A stretch of 64,000 nt of DNA, taken from the NCBI RefSeq assembly GCF_009914755.1, contig NC_060946.1. One strand, given 5' to 3'. The notes beneath the pieces were generated by a model. The model did no database searches. It was not told the origin of the DNA and was given only the letters and a program-made list of their open reading frames with translations. Numbering within the stretch: position 1 is the first letter of the stretch; the number at the start of each line of letters is the position of its first letter. This DNA is from the human T2T-CHM13v2.0 reference genome, Homo sapiens. Shown here one piece after another: positions 10,153 through 19,416 of this stretch. The translations under genes were made by a program, and so were the position numbers.

Positions 10153-10296
10153 CACTGTTTTTTTCTTACAGTCTTACTTGTTTCCCTGTTGCATCCCTAT
10201 TATGGAGATGAGTTAAAGAGAACAATTGTTTGCACACGTGCAGGCATTTAGGAGTTACCTGATGCCACCCACTATGGTAGTCTCCCTGCTTGCTGT
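10153..10296 (+). pseudogene. SGLT-like exon 12, 5' part (start approximate)
   Basis: CIPIMEMS*REQLFAHVQAFRSYLMPPTMVVSLLAV vs SGLT1 [36 protein letters not shown]; TAA at 10214-10216; 5' end degraded. Confidence 0.85.
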
Positions 10297-10509
10297 TACA
10301 AACCAAACTAAAATGTTAAGCCCTCCAACTGACTGATGGACCCCCCAGCCAGCCAAGGGCATTCCAAAGTAAAGCTGAAAAACCAGTTCAGGCTATTATG
10401 GAAAGTGGTGGGGGTCGGGGAAAGGTGGGACATACCTCATTATATCATCCTGTCTTTGGAATTCATGCACAACTGACCAGCATTATCATTAAAAGAGATT
10501 TTTAAGATT

Positions 10510-10809
10510 GGCAGGGCATGGTGGCTCATGCCTGTAATCCCAGCACTTTGGGAGGCCGAAGTGGGTGGATCACCTGAGGTCAGGAGTTCAAGATCAGCCT
10601 GGCCAACATGGTGAAACCCCGTCTCTACTAAAAATACAAAAATTAGCCAGGCATGGTGGTGTGTGCCTGTAATCCCAGCTACTTGGGAGGCTGAAGCAGG
10701 AGAATCGCTTGAACCTGGGAGGCAGAGGTTGCAGTGAGCCGAGATCACGCCACTGCACTCCAGCCTGGGCAACAGAGTGAGACTCCATCTCAAAAAAAAA
10801 AAAAAAAAA
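10510..10809 (+). repeat. AluSx-like inside the MER4 5' LTR
   Basis: Full dimer; short TSD 'aagatt'. Confidence 0.95.
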
Positions 10810-11498
10810 GATTAACAGTATAGATTTTTTTGTAGCAATAAGACACCAGATTCCAGCCTGACACTAGTATAGCATCACATGATGGATAGCAGGCCCTGAG
10901 ACAAACCAAAGTATTTTATCCCCAAAATATATTTATTTGACATATTTTGAAATGACCCTGCAAAGCTGTCTCTCATGGGGGAAATCTGAATTCTGTAGAG
11001 AATTCCCTGTTCTTCACAGGTCTTTCCCTTGATCCAGGAGAAAATTATCTAAGAGCCTGGCATGTTTTTTGGTCTGATAAGAGCTCTGAAGCCTGCTACC
11101 TGGAGGCTTCACCTGCGTGATAAAACCTTGGTCTCCACAACCCTTTATCTGAACCCAGACATTCTTTTCTATTGATTCCAGGTCTTTAGATAATAACTCT
11201 TTTAACCAATTGCCAATCAGGAAATCTTTGAATCTGCCTATGACCTGGAAGCCCCTCCACCTTTCCTGCTTTGAGTTGTCCCACCTTTCTGGACTAAACC
11301 AATGTACATCTTACACATATTAATTAATGTCTTATGTCTCCCTAAAATGTGTAAGACCAAGCTGTGGCTTGACCACCTTGGGCACATGTTCTCAAGATAT
11401 CCTGGGGCAGTGTCACAGGCCATTGGTCACCCATACTTGGCTCAGAATAAATATCTTCAAATATTTTACAGAGTCTGACTCTTTTTATCAACAATAAT

Positions 11499-11516
11499 TG
11501 GCACCCAACATCGGGC
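11499..11516 (+). other. Primer-binding site, tRNA-Lys(CTT)-like
   Basis: TGGCACCCAACATCGGGC vs TGGCGCCCAACGTGGGGC (15/18; two differences are CpG transitions), just after the LTR 'CA'. Confidence 0.7.
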
Positions 11517-16014: not shown

Positions 16015-17708
16015 AAGTGACATTACTTCTGCAGAACAAATTTGCTGTTCTTCATGGGTCTTGCATATGCTAATAAAACATTCGGCTTAAAAGAAAAATA
16101 GGAAAGGCAAATGGGAGTCAAAAGACTCTTCTAAGATGAGTGGTTATTAAGAAATGAAATAAAATGAAAATTGATGGGGTTAAAACAAACGTCTTTACAA
16201 CACTATCAAAGGTTATAATAGCTTTGATAGTGGCTATTATATATAGCTTGGCTATAATAGTCCTCTAAAGACAAACCAGGTTACAATTCCCTTCCTGATG
16301 TTTTTAGTTGATGCCCTAATGGAATAGGTTTCTTTTTCTGTTCTGACACACAAGTTCTCTTCTGATTGTCAAATTATTGGCTAAAGGGAGCCCCTGCTGG
16401 TCCCCAACATTATAAAGCCCGACACCAGTTTTTAGTTTTCTGCTTTCTGCATTTGCTCCAGATTGGAGAAATTTAAGAAAAATCAAAAGACACGGAGTTA
16501 AAATGAGAGAGCTGACATTGCCTGGGGCAATGTTGAGGCAAATTACGATAATGATTGACAAAAGGGCCTGAGGCCCTTCACCCAGCCCCCCTGCTGGAAA
16601 CCCAGATTCACTCTCACCAGGGAAGATAAAACGGTCTGGGATAGAGAAGAAATGTTCCTAGAACAAGAACGTAAAAATATAAGGGACCTGAAGCTATCCC
16701 TGCAGTAATGGAAATAATGATGCCCAAAAGAGTTCCATGAGAAAACAAATGGTTTACGTAAGATCTTGCTTCCTGGAAAATGCAAGGAGAAGATACTTGC
16801 AAGCAGGGAGCTTCTTTTCCCCCTTAGAATTAACACTGCATGAGGAGCTGCTAGATTCTACAGTGCTTGATAAATAGCTCTTCCCTGACTGACAAAGAGC
16901 TGCTTAGTTTGCGGATGGCCGTTCCTAGGTGAACAACTGACATCCTATTTGGAAGGCTGCTACTCTGATTGTGAAGTATACTTTTATGAACAGAATTTAC
17001 CTTTCTTGCTACCTGAGTTCCCCTAAATTCGGTAACTATTCATGAGTATCCTTATTTTATGGCAATATACTTGTTTGCATAAGTTCGGTTAAGAGGACAC
17101 AATTGGAGACACTGGTTATTTTACCAAGGCTTTGACTAAATAATATATTTTTAGGAGTCCCAGCAAAGCCAACTTGAAAAGAGCCTATGTGGCCAATCAA
17201 TTCTTGTTGAACTTTATGCACATAATTAGGCCAAGTATAAGCCTAAAACTTAACTTACACACAAATTGGCCTTACCATGATTTCTCTTTAGTGGAAAAAC
17301 AGGGCTAGAGAGAGAAAAATTATGTTTCAAAAGGAAAACTATTCACACACCTGTTACTAGATTGCAGCCCTGACCTTTGTTTCTGAGCACAGATTAAATC
17401 ATGAATTATTTCTTGGCTATAACAGTCCTCTAAAGACAAACAAGGTTATGATTTTCTTTATGTTTTTAGTTGGCATTCTAATGGAAGAGGGTTATTTTTC
17501 TGTTCTGACACACAAATTCTTTTTTGATGGTCAAATTATTGTTATTTAGCTCACATAGCTTTACTTCTTCTGAGGAAACCAGAATTATGGTATTCTGAAG
17601 GCTAGAGACAATTTGACAAAGCCTGTGAATCTCCCTCATTTGAGATCCTGCTGGGCCCGATGTGTTTTTCACTGCCAATGCCCTGCTGCTAAAACTATAC
17701 AAGCACCT

Positions 17709-18310
17709 GGCTGGGCACGGTGGCTCACGCCTGTAATCCCAGCACTTTGGGAGGCCGAGGCAGGCGGATCACAAGGTCAGGAGATCAAGACCAGCCTGGC
17801 TAACACCGTGAAACCCTGTCTCTACTAAAAATACAAAAAAAATTAGCAGGGCGTGGTGGTGGGTGCCTGTAGTCCCAGGTACTTGGGAAGCTGAGGCAGG
17901 AGAATGGTGCACCGATTTCCACATGCAAAAGAAAGACTCTGAAACCCTACTTCACACTATGCACAAAAAGTCATTTAAAATAGATCAACAGCCTATGTCG
18001 GGCACGGTGGCTCATGCCTGTAATCCCACCACTTTGGGAGGCCGAGGTGGGCAGATCACGAGGTCAGGAGATCGAGATCATCCTGGCTAGCACGGTGAAA
18101 CCCCGCCTCTACTAAAAATACAAAAAATTAGCCGGGCGTGGTGGCGGGCGCCTGTAGTCCCAGCTACTCAGGAGGCTGAGGCAGGAGAATGGCATGAACC
18201 CGGGAGGCGGAGCTTGCAGTGAGCCGAGATTGTGCCACTGCACTCCAGCCTGCGCGACACAGCAAGACTCTGTCTCAAAAAAACAAAAAAAGAAAAAGAA
18301 AAAGAAAAAG
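17709..18310 (+). repeat. Truncated Alu + ~85-bp L1-like fragment + full AluY
   Basis: Alu breaks at 'ggagaatggtg' (~17909); 'ccacatgcaaaagaaagactctgaaaccctacttcacactatgcacaaaa' resembles L1 ORF2; second Alu starts ~17996. Confidence 0.8.
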
Positions 18311-19391
18311 AATGTTAAGGGTTGATGAATGCCTGTCCACCTTTATTCCTGTCTGGCTCAGAACATTTAAATTATGTCTTTTAGCTCTAAGTCTCTTGGC
18401 TGTAGGAGTCCCACTTAGAGACAGAAGGGACCCATGGCAGGCAGCCACACCACCCCAGCAATGCTGTGGGACGAAATAAAAGTTTGGTGGCTTGCTGTTT
18501 TCTCTGGGAAATCTTGGCCAGAAGGAGGAGAATGTAAACCAAAAATAAAATTCTAAGCCCTACAACTTACTGATGGACACCCCTCTTAACCAAGGGCATT
18601 CCAAAGTAAACCTGAAAAGCTAGTTGAGGCCATGGTGGGAAGTAGAGGTCAGACATGCTTCATTATTCCCTCCTCTTTTTGGAATTCGAGCATAACTAAC
18701 CAGCATTAACATTAAAACAGAGATCTTAAGACTGACAATACAGACTTCTTGTAGCAATAAGACATCAAATTCCTGGCTGACTCTAGTATAGCATCACATG
18801 ACAGATGGCAGGCCCTGAAATAAAGTATGTTAGCCCCAAACATGCTTCTTTGACATATTTTGAAATGGCCCTGCAAAGCTGTCTCTTCTGAGGGAAATCT
18901 ACATTCTGTAGAAAGTCCCCTTCCCTTGCCAGGTCTTTTCTGTGACCCAAGAGAATTAACTAAGAGTCTGGCACCTTTTAGGTCTGATAAGAGCTCTGAA
19001 GTCTTCATCTACATGACAAAACCTTGGTCACCACAATACCTTATTTTAACCCAGACATTCCTTTCTATTGATTCTAGGTCTTTAGGTAATAACTCTTTAA
19101 CCAATTGCCAATCAGGAAATCTTTAAATCCACCTATGACCTGGAGCCCCTCCACCTTCCCTGCTTTGAGTTGTCCCGCCTTTTTGAACTGAACCAATGTA
19201 CATCTTACATATATGGATTGATATCTTATGTCCCCCTAAAATATATAAGACCAAGCTGTAGCCCCACCACCTTGGGCACATGTTCTCAGGATCTCCTGGG
19301 GCTGTGTCATGAGCCATTGGTCACGCATATTTGGTTCAGAATAAATCTTTTCAAATATTTTGCAGAGTTTGACCCTTTTCATCAACACCAT

Positions 19392-19416
19392 GTTTTGCAA
19401 GAGAGTCATTGAGCAG
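19392..19416 (+). pseudogene. SGLT-like exon 12, 3' part
   Basis: G TTT TGC AAG AGA GTC ATT GAG CAG = (V)FCKRVIEQ vs SGLT1 IFWKRVNEP, then donor gtgggt (phase 0); in frame with 10296 once the provirus and one TSD copy are removed. Confidence 0.85.

What the first reader, a model, noticed from the sequence alone, without database searches (positions are those of the whole stretch)
10293..19416. A 9.1-kb MER4 provirus sits inside SGLT-like exon 12 and may have killed the gene
The frame runs ...CTG CTT GCT GT (10296), breaks at the 5' LTR and resumes after the 3' LTR plus 4 nt as G TTT TGC AAG AGA (19392), rebuilding LLAVFCKRVIEQ. The flanks CTGT and CCAT are what a 4-bp TSD CCGT gives after CpG deamination on opposite strands. 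By manual count the last ~330 nt of the two LTRs differ at about 40 positions (~12%), so the insertion is tens of millions of years old. The gene was dead by then at the latest. One genome cannot show whether the insertion came before the TAA at 10214, the exon-14 splice losses or the frameshift.
Basis: partly seen in the sequence, partly recalled or inferred. Interest (0 to 1): 0.8.

Follow-up and report, generated by a model that had tools for sequence, protein, structure and literature searches.

The report
Old retroviral element splitting a dead SGLT exon
An ancient retrovirus-like element really does sit inside exon 12 of an unannotated, broken sugar-transporter (SGLT-like) gene, but the gene has at least six other disabling defects, so this one genome cannot show that the element killed it.

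Summary
Two 0.86-kb LTRs (10297-11493, carrying a later Alu; 18533-19387) bound a 9.1-kb element. It has a TGG-led primer-binding-like site after the 5' LTR and a purine tract before the 3' LTR. Read across it, the host frame gives ...SLLAVFCKRVIEQ, gapless against exon 12 of SLC5A1 and SLC5A4.

The whole LTRs differ more: 135 of 851, K2P 0.18, roughly 40-90 My.

The flanking CTGT/CCAT match 2 of 4. CCGT is one of three workable ancestors.

The inner 7 kb shows no gag, pol or env. It carries six later Alus and a foreign solo LTR. "MER4" could not be tested here.

The host gene spans at least 70 kb (exon 2 at -28.7 kb, exon 15 at 41.1-41.3 kb). Besides the insertion it shows:
- exons 8-11 undetectable
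- exon 7 donor GT>GG
- exon 12 acceptor displaced
- TAA at 10214
- exon 14 acceptor AG>GG
- an exon 15 frameshift

A chr12 copy of exon 13, about as old as the insertion, suggests the gene was already unconstrained then. "Killed the gene" stays unproven and is somewhat disfavoured. This is ordinary genome archaeology.

The parts
10151..10296 (+). 5' part of SGLT-like exon 12. The paralogous exon start is about 10151.
   Evidence: tblastn with SLC5A1/SLC5A4 exon 12 peptides: 10193-10297, 43% and 34% identity, E 1e-5 and 4e-4. Boundary comparison.
10214..10216 (+). In-frame TAA at the place of a Gln codon of SLC5A1 and SLC5A4.
10293..10296 (+). 5' flanking 4-mer CTGT (candidate target-site duplication copy).
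10297..11493 (+). 5' LTR, starting TAC and ending ATCAACA, with AATAAA at 11446-11451. It is interrupted by an Alu at 10510-10813 with an AAGATT flank repeat.
11499..11516 (+). Primer-binding-site-like 18-mer starting TGG, 5 nt after the 5' LTR.
   Evidence: Read directly. In one search, 7 other loci run from the LTR end through this stretch. The tRNA match was not tested.
11494..18532 (+). Internal part of the element. About 4.3 kb is family-specific sequence. The rest is six Alus (about 11945-12238, 12600-12872, 15219-15516, 15644-15937, 17708-17905, 18000-18294) and one foreign solo LTR.
   Evidence: Alu intervals. Collinear matches to other loci (C16:64.10 Mb, C5:42.14 Mb, C11:3.33 Mb, C12:106.9 Mb and others). 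No Pfam or retroviral PDB match.
13267..14142 (+). Secondary insertion: an 876-nt solo LTR of another family (TGAAAC...ATATCA) with a perfect AAAG/AAAG flank repeat.
   Evidence: Sharp-edged matches to query positions 395-1270 in more than 25 places. Flanks read.
18520..18532 (+). Polypurine tract AGAAGGAGGAGAA abutting the 3' LTR.
18533..19387 (+). 3' LTR, 855 nt, TGT...ACA, with AATAAA at 19340-19345.
19388..19391 (+). 3' flanking 4-mer CCAT.
19392..19416 (+). 3' part of exon 12 (V)FCKRVIEQ, followed by the donor gtgggt.
20855..21070 (+). Exon 13: 72 open codons, with AG acceptor and GT donor kept.
24648..24716 (+). Exon 14 remnant LHQLCWSLCISQEETVDQDAETQ. The acceptor is GG where SLC5A1 has AG.
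41061..41331 (+). Exon 15 remnant: WDMFCGLE in one frame, then ...SDNPYWRRVVGISGIILIMLKVLGVIYFA and a stop in the next frame. That is one frameshift, with the terminal stop kept at the paralogous place.

Best explanation
An ERV1-style LTR element integrated in the sense orientation into the exon-12 homologue of a third SGLT1/SGLT3-like gene. Its features are two about 0.86-kb LTRs, a TGG-led primer-binding-like site, a polypurine tract and a 4-bp target duplication. It shows no recognisable coding capacity today. The host gene lies between the IGL locus and RSPH14.

The integration dates from the burst of its LTR family, about 0.09 substitutions per site per lineage ago, roughly 40-90 My. Such an insertion is disabling on its own: it splits a transmembrane-coding exon and brings two AATAAA signals in sense.

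The host gene is now a unitary-type pseudogene of at least 70 kb with at least six further disabling lesions. These are loss of exons 8-11, exon 7 donor GT>GG, a displaced exon 12 acceptor, TAA at 10214, exon 14 acceptor AG>GG and an exon 15 frameshift.

Shown: the anatomy, the in-frame rejoining of the exon, the age range and the lesion list.

Inferred: the element most likely landed in a gene that had already lost constraint, or lost it at about the same time. It is more likely a passenger than the founding lesion.
For: Anatomy:
- LTR pair.
- Family edges and 4-bp flank repeats in other copies: L008 CCAT/CCAT 4 of 4, L004 and L005 3 of 4, L003 2 of 4, L002 and L007 no clear repeat, L006 is a 5' LTR.
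- Primer-binding-like site and purine tract.
- The internal sequence forms a natural unit with this LTR: 13 of 40 listed places span the internal-to-3'LTR junction and 7 of 41 span the 5'LTR-to-leader junction.

Exon: a gapless read across the insertion against both paralogues.

Gene: 9 of 13 exon queries (2, 3, 4, 5, 7, 12, 13, 14, 15) hit in collinear order at E <= 0.03. Exons 8-11 reach at best 22.7 bits, E >= 0.13.

Age: K2P 0.182. The 9-copy comparison is star-like with end branches of 0.083 and 0.11.

Lean to passenger. The chr12 fragment (window 20623-21111 plus 21375-21659) differs by K2P 0.194 overall and 0.204 in the intron flanks. Exon 13 itself differs by p 0.148 +/- 0.024 against flanks 0.175 +/- 0.016. 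There are 8 polarised amino-acid changes on the window lineage against 7 on the dead chr12 copy, with 7 not polarisable. Of the differing codons, 22 change the amino acid and 4 are synonymous only.
Against: - The order of lesions cannot be read from one genome.
- The chr12 estimate and the LTR estimate overlap within error (about +/-0.02 each), and exon 13 is only 72 codons.
- The window copy of exon 13 kept its frame while the chr12 copy took 2 indels and a stop. That would fit some lingering constraint on the window gene.
- The eight exons counted (2-5, 7, 12-14) hold only one indel, an in-frame 3-nt loss. From LTR or intron indel rates 6.1-8.7 would be expected, P 0.002-0.016. Detection bias and lower indel rates in coding-derived sequence probably explain this.
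- The flanking 4-mers match only 2 of 4.
- The 5' LTR starts TAC, not TG.
- No retroviral protein remnant backs the word 'provirus'.
Confidence: 0.55

Rival explanations
1. The insertion was the founding lesion. It hit an intact, expressed SGLT-like gene in an early anthropoid or older primate ancestor and became fixed. Every other defect, including the loss of exons 8-11, accumulated afterwards.
For: - The insertion is as old as its LTR family's burst (K2P 0.18 between the LTRs, the same as between unrelated copies), so few lesions can be older.
- Exons 2-5 and 13 keep open frames and both splice sites, and exon 7 keeps its frame and acceptor.
- Exonic indels and stops are few, so the neutral period need not be longer than the element's age.
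- The window copy of exon 13 has no indel or stop, while the chr12 copy has both.
Against: - It is one of at least seven candidate lesions.
- Exon 13 shows no sign of constraint since a duplication whose point estimate is slightly older than the LTR divergence.
- Nothing in this genome orders the events.
Confidence: 0.2
2. This locus was never a working gene in primates. It would be a partial, dead-on-arrival duplicate of an SGLT gene lacking exons 8-11, so the insertion is irrelevant to any gene loss.
For: Exons 8-11 and exon 1 are not found anywhere from -70 kb to +64 kb.
Against: - The exons are only 34-68% identical in protein to SLC5A1 and SLC5A4 yet keep intron positions, open frames and most splice sites. 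An ancient paralogue would not look like this unless it was long maintained by selection.
- Passages of PMC9614664 place genes annotated SLC5A1/SLC5A4 beside VpreB2 and the lambda locus in other eutherians.
Confidence: 0.05
3. The two LTRs do not come from one integration. They could be two solo LTRs, or a recombinant between two elements, that happen to flank the exon halves.
For: - The two LTRs are no closer to each other (K2P 0.184) than the 3' LTR is to copies on other chromosomes (0.167-0.178), and no fork in the tree is supported.
- The flanking 4-mers match only 2 of 4.
Against: - The host exon closes in frame and without a gap when exactly LTR-to-LTR plus one 4-mer is removed.
- The primer-binding-like site and the purine tract sit at the proper inner edges.
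- The inner sequence is collinear with other elements carrying the same LTR junctions.
- The copies compared were picked as the best matches to the 3' LTR, which biases them towards it.
Confidence: 0.03

Closest known systems
SLC5A1 (SGLT1) and SLC5A4 (SGLT3), chr22 at 32.5-32.7 Mb of the same assembly
   Same: Exon-by-exon protein similarity in the same order with the same intron positions. Examples: exon 3 68%/53%, exon 7 62%/58%, exon 13 45%/44%, exon 14 57%/57%. The C-terminal ...YFA stop is at the same place.
   Different: - It is about equally far from both paralogues, which are about 54-88% identical to each other in the segments aligned, so it is a third lineage and not a recent copy.
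- It lies 9 Mb away, next to IGL and RSPH14.
- It is broken in at least seven ways and absent from the RefSeq table supplied with the finding.
ERV1-class LTR elements of the MER4 group (MER4-int with MER4A/C/D/E LTRs, as listed in Table 4 of PMC5753468)
   Same: LTR-bounded structure, TGT...ACA ends, a 4-bp flank repeat in the family, hundreds to thousands of dispersed copies, and an age of tens of My.
   Different: Membership of MER4 could not be tested because no repeat library is available. This copy and one relative (L042) show no gag, pol or env by Pfam.
Unitary pseudogenes of the primate lineage that carry transposable-element insertions (general class, recalled and not searched)
   Same: A single-copy gene with relatives kept in other mammals, dead in human, with several independent lesions of which one is a mobile-element insertion in an exon.
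   Different: Here the order of lesions is unknown. The orthology to the IGL-adjacent SLC5A genes of other mammals rests only on passages of one paper.

Membership tests
LTR retroelement / endogenous retrovirus provirus (ERV1-type) | Two LTRs in direct orientation bounding an internal region | tested here: met
   10297-11493 and 18533-19387: 135 mismatches in 851 aligned sites.
LTR retroelement / endogenous retrovirus provirus (ERV1-type) | LTR termini TG...CA | tested here: inconclusive
   The 3' LTR is TGT...ACA. The 5' LTR ends ACA but starts TAC where 6 of 7 other copies have TGT and one has TGA.
LTR retroelement / endogenous retrovirus provirus (ERV1-type) | Target-site duplication of family-typical length (4 bp) | tested here: inconclusive
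   The window has CTGT/CCAT, 2 of 4. Among 7 other copies: L008 4 of 4, L004 and L005 3 of 4, L003 2 of 4, L002 and L007 none clear, L006 not a solo LTR. The in-frame closure of the exon needs exactly one 4-mer.
LTR retroelement / endogenous retrovirus provirus (ERV1-type) | Primer-binding site after the 5' LTR and polypurine tract before the 3' LTR | tested here: inconclusive
   TGGCACCCAACATCGGGC sits at 11499-11516 and AGAAGGAGGAGAA at 18520-18532. Complementarity to a tRNA 3' end was not tested. A likeness to tRNA-Lys is only recalled.
LTR retroelement / endogenous retrovirus provirus (ERV1-type) | gag, pol, env coding remnants | tested here: not met
   - 0 families for 73 ORFs of 25 aa or more.
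- 0 families in three frames of 12873-15218 and 15938-17707 read with X at stops.
- PDB hits in three frames of 11494-18532 all fall on Alu stretches.
- The related element L042 also gives 0 families.
MER4 family (Repbase/Dfam) | Sequence match to the MER4 LTR and MER4-int consensus | not testable with these tools
   No repeat library is available. Only the listing of MER4 LTR and internal names was read in PMC5753468.
SLC5 / SGLT gene, SGLT1-SGLT3 clade | Collinear exons homologous to SLC5A1/SLC5A4 with shared intron positions | tested here: met
   9 of 13 exon queries hit in order at E <= 0.03. Splice junctions fall at the paralogous codons for exons 2-5, 7 and 13.
SLC5 / SGLT gene, SGLT1-SGLT3 clade | Pfam SSF (PF00474) match | tested here: inconclusive
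   No SSF hit for any of 138 short pieces. The exon 12, 13 and 14 pieces included as positive controls also failed, so the test had no power.
SLC5 / SGLT gene, SGLT1-SGLT3 clade | Complete open reading frame | tested here: not met
   Exons 8-11 are undetected, plus TAA at 10214, splice-site losses, an exon 15 frameshift and the 9.1-kb insertion.
Unitary pseudogene | Functional orthologue at the syntenic place in other species and no functional copy of this lineage in human | not testable with these tools
   No other eukaryote genome is available. The lead is PMC9614664, whose passages place SLC5A1/SLC5A4-named genes beside VpreB2 and IgL in other eutherians. The only other human copy of exon 13 outside known SLC5 genes is the 0.78-kb chr12 fragment.

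The most novel reading that the evidence does not exclude
A sense-oriented ERV integration into exon 12 was the founding event. It removed an otherwise conserved, IGL-adjacent SGLT1/3-like sugar transporter or sensor from the anthropoid (or earlier primate) lineage. That would be a datable case of gene loss caused by an endogenous retrovirus hitting a coding exon.
Probability: 0.2. Interest if true: 0.5.

Novelty: new member of a known kind. Interest (0 to 1): 0.3.

Why it matters
If the insertion were shown to be the first lesion, this would be a clean, datable example of a retrovirus knocking out a mammalian transporter gene in the primate stem. It would also point to a third SGLT1/3-like gene that other mammals may still use.

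As the evidence stands, it documents an unannotated multi-lesion SGLT-like pseudogene of at least 70 kb between IGL and RSPH14, with an old LTR element as one of its defects. That is useful for annotation and for gene-loss surveys, but it is not surprising to a specialist.

Tried and rejected
- Pfam on 136 short stop-to-stop ORFs of 1-10296 (Alu-dominated ORFs dropped beforehand) to find exons 8-11. It was uninformative, because the exon 12, 13 and 14 control pieces also gave no SSF hit.
- tblastx and tblastn with paralogue exons replaced it.
- A query for exon 6 could not be made, because no SLC5A1-SLC5A4 match was found in that interval. Exon 1 queries gave only noise, best E 0.065.
- A frameshift at the start of exon 12 was considered and dropped. 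The paralogue comparison fits one frame with a 3-nt loss and a displaced acceptor.
- An alternative 5' LTR start at 10294 (TGT plus 3 extra bases) was rejected. It gives flanks TTGC/CCAT (0 of 4) and an exon one codon short of both paralogues (reasoned).
- The chr12 hit was tested as a possible processed copy that could show the empty site. It is a 0.78-kb genomic fragment with intron flanks and does not reach exon 12.
- CpG correction of the LTR distance using present-day CpGs changes little: 8 CpG-context sites, p 0.155 without them. A family consensus, which would do this better, was not built.
- The indel-count argument for the length of the neutral period was not used as evidence. It is biased by which exons can still be detected and by sequence context.
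- The log of earlier findings was not open.
- Papers: searches found no description of this human pseudogene.
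Full report
WHAT IS AT THE COORDINATES

The window is T2T chr22:23436001-23500000. A direct-repeat search and blastn find one long repeat pair around the finding. Positions 10300-10513 and 10808-11493 match 18536-18737 and 18728-19387 at 74.5% and 82.4%. The gap in the upstream copy is an Alu at 10510-10813 with an AAGATT flank repeat.

The downstream copy, 18533-19387 (855 nt), has family-defined edges:
- A genome search lists 8 other places that match positions 1-855 end to end. 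In all, 5646 candidates were seen and 40 scored.
- In a junction search, 26 of 40 listed places begin at the LTR's first bases.

The inner edges look retroviral. ATCAACA is followed by ATAAT and then TGGCACCCAACATCGGGC at 11499-11516. The purine run AGAAGGAGGAGAA at 18520-18532 abuts TGTAAACC. Each LTR carries AATAAA in the + sense, at 11446-11451 and 19340-19345.

THE HOST EXON

Upstream, the frame ...CTG CTT GCT GT stops at 10296. Downstream it resumes with G TTT TGC AAG AGA GTC ATT GAG CAG followed by gtgggt.

I took SLC5A1 and SLC5A4 exons from the same assembly. Read across the insertion with one 4-mer kept, the exon gives TMVVSLLAVFCKRVIEQ. This is gapless against [17 protein letters not shown] (SLC5A1) and IAAVFVLAIFCKRVNEQ (SLC5A4). 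This in-frame, gapless closure is the strongest evidence that everything from 10297 to 19391 is one insertion into a once continuous exon.

The flanking 4-mers are CTGT and CCAT, a 2 of 4 match, which is weak by itself. Other copies of the LTR show that the family makes 4-bp repeats: L008 CCAT/CCAT, L004 CATT/CATC and L005 GACC/GACT. L003 matches 2 of 4, L002 and L007 show no clear repeat, and L006 is a 5' LTR.

But at the same four bases SLC5A1 has CTAT and SLC5A4 has CCAT. So CTAT or CCAT as the target cannot be excluded.

The 5' LTR starts TAC, where the 3' LTR and 6 of 7 other copies start TGT.

AGE

With the Alu removed, the LTRs differ at 135 of 851 aligned sites: 91 transitions, 44 transversions, p 0.159, K2P 0.182, 11 gap events. 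Leaving out the 8 present-day CpG-context sites changes little (p 0.155).

Halved and divided by 2.2e-9 per site per year (a rate I recall as commonly used), K2P 0.182 gives about 41 My. At 1.0-1.5e-9 it gives 61-91 My.

A comparison with seven other copies is star-like. The window's 5' and 3' LTRs are 0.184 apart. The 3' LTR is 0.167-0.178 from L002, L003, L004 and L006. No fork is supported, and the end branches are 0.083 and 0.11. So the element dates from the family's burst.

The LTR distance alone does not prove that the two LTRs are a pair. Position and the exon closure do. The seven copies were chosen as best matches to the 3' LTR, which biases them towards it.

THE INSIDE OF THE ELEMENT

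The 7.0 kb between the LTRs contains six Alus. It also contains a foreign 876-nt solo LTR at 13267-14142 with a perfect AAAG/AAAG flank repeat. About 4.3 kb remains.

That remainder belongs with this LTR:
- 13 of 40 listed places span the junction from inner sequence into the 3' LTR.
- 7 of 41 span from the 5' LTR into the leader.
- Several loci (C16:64.10 Mb, C5:42.14 Mb, C11:3.33 Mb, C12:106.9 Mb) match successive inner segments in order at 67-83%.

No retroviral protein remnant was found:
- 0 Pfam families for 73 ORFs of 25 aa or more.
- 0 Pfam families for three frames of 12873-15218 and 15938-17707 read with X at stops.
- In three frames of 11494-18532, only PDB hits that fall on Alu stretches.
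- 5.75 kb of the C12 relative also gave 0 families.

The element is therefore provirus-shaped but non-coding as far as these searches can see. The name MER4 cannot be checked without a repeat library. I only read the Repbase listing of MER4 LTR and MER4-int names in PMC5753468 (passages).

THE HOST GENE AS A WHOLE

With 70 kb fetched upstream, tblastn with paralogue exon peptides finds the following:

| Exon | Position |
|---|---|
| 2 | -28717..-28640 |
| 3 | -22444..-22325 |
| 4 | -18989..-18918 |
| 5 | -4899..-4783 |
| 7 | -928..-827 |
| 12 | 10193-10297, plus 19392-19416 |
| 13 | 20855-21070 |
| 14 | 24648-24716 |
| 15 | 41061-41331 |

These are 9 of 13 exon queries, all collinear, at E from 1e-15 to 0.03. 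Exons 8, 9, 10 and 11 give only noise anywhere from -70 kb to +64 kb on either strand (best 22.7 bits, E >= 0.13). In the paralogues exons 9 and 11 are among the best conserved. Exon 1 was not found, and no query could be made for exon 6.

Protein identity is about the same to both paralogues, slightly higher to SLC5A1 (for example exon 3 at 68% against 53%). So this is a third, old member of the SGLT1/SGLT3 clade.

State of the exons and splice sites:

| Exon | Acceptor | Donor | Coding frame |
|---|---|---|---|
| 2, 3, 4, 5, 13 | kept | kept | open |
| 7 | kept | GG where SLC5A1 has GT | open |
| 12 | no AG at the paralogous acceptor place | kept | 3-nt loss, TAA at 10214, the insertion |
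| 14 | GG instead of AG | not determined | open over the aligned 23 codons |
| 15 | not determined | last exon | one frameshift; ends ...YFA stop at the paralogous place |

The gene therefore has at least seven disabling defects.

WHICH LESION CAME FIRST?

One genome cannot order the lesions, but one internal clock exists. Chr12 (about 107.796 Mb) holds a 0.78-kb genomic copy of exon 13 with its intron flanks. It corresponds to window 20623-21111 plus 21375-21659 and lacks the window's Alu at 21112-21374.

- The two copies differ by K2P 0.194 overall and 0.204 in the flanks. That is about the same as, or slightly more than, the LTR pair.
- Exon 13 differs by p 0.148 +/- 0.024 against 0.175 +/- 0.016 in the flanks.
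- With SLC5A1 and SLC5A4 as outgroups, 8 amino-acid changes fall on the window lineage and 7 on the dead chr12 copy, with 7 not polarisable.
- Of the differing codons, 22 change the amino acid and 4 do not.

So exon 13 of the gene has drifted as freely as a dead fragment since a time at least as old as the insertion, within errors of about 0.02. This leans weakly towards a gene already released from constraint when the element arrived.

Three observations point the other way:
- The window copy of exon 13 kept its frame, while the chr12 copy gained two indels and a stop.
- The eight exons counted (2-5, 7, 12-14) hold only one indel, an in-frame one. From LTR and intron indel rates 6.1-8.7 would be expected.
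- I do not rely on that indel count, because only well-kept exons are detectable. I also recall, without having checked here, that indel rates in coding-derived pseudogene sequence are several-fold lower than in introns.

My odds are roughly 0.55-0.6 that the insertion was a passenger or near-simultaneous, 0.2 that it was the founding lesion, and the rest undecided or other.

CONTEXT AND NOVELTY

The RefSeq table supplied with the finding lists no gene here. Searches of the paper library found no description of this human pseudogene.

Passages of PMC9614664 state that in other eutherians VpreB2, at the lambda locus, is flanked by genes annotated SLC5A1 and SLC5A4. That fits a conserved IGL-adjacent SGLT-like gene lost in the human lineage. 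I could not test the orthology, and I did not see that paper's supplementary tables.

The finding is a correct and careful piece of sequence reading. Its biology, an old LTR element in a multiply broken unitary pseudogene, is of a familiar kind. The causal claim remains open until orthologous loci are compared.

Noticed in passing
between window -827 and 10151: Exons 8, 9, 10 and 11 of the SGLT-like gene are undetectable here and anywhere else from -70 kb to +64 kb on either strand. The flanking exons 7 and 12 are found. This is probably a multi-exon deletion, and no junction was located.
   Followed up: partly
window 20623-21111 and 21375-21659; L021 (chr12, about 107.796 Mb): A 0.78-kb genomic fragment holding exon 13 and its intron flanks is duplicated on chr12 at about 82% identity with sharp ends. 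The Alu at 21112-21374 is absent there. How such a small piece was copied is unexplained.
   Followed up: partly
window 13267-14142: An 876-nt solo LTR of a different, abundant family sits inside the element with a perfect AAAG/AAAG target duplication.
   Followed up: partly
window about 2950-4450: Tandem 41-nt units (3545-3795, about 6 copies) are followed by a block of 63-77% G+C (3700-4450). The layout reminds me of HERV9-type LTRs, which is recalled and not tested. It lies in the interval where exons 8-11 should be.
   Followed up: no
window 41061-41331: The exon 15 remnant of the pseudogene overlaps the RefSeq 'enhancer' feature 41303-41442 listed by the hub. The features 16208-17105 and 17628-18403 lie inside the LTR element.
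   Followed up: no
window 16247-16379 and 17412-17541: A 133-nt direct repeat (84% identity, about 1165 nt apart) lies inside the inner part of the element. Its origin is unknown.
   Followed up: no
window -24865..-24540 (hub table): The processed pseudogene ATP5PFP2 lies inside intron 2 of the SGLT-like pseudogene, between exon 2 at -28.7 kb and exon 3 at -22.4 kb.
   Followed up: no
window about 11578; C12:106908911-106911200: Relative to the C12:106.9 Mb relative, the window's element lacks about 2.3 kb just after the leader. The extra C12 sequence (L042) is rich in Alus and gave no Pfam family, so it may be later insertions there and not a deletion here.
   Followed up: partly
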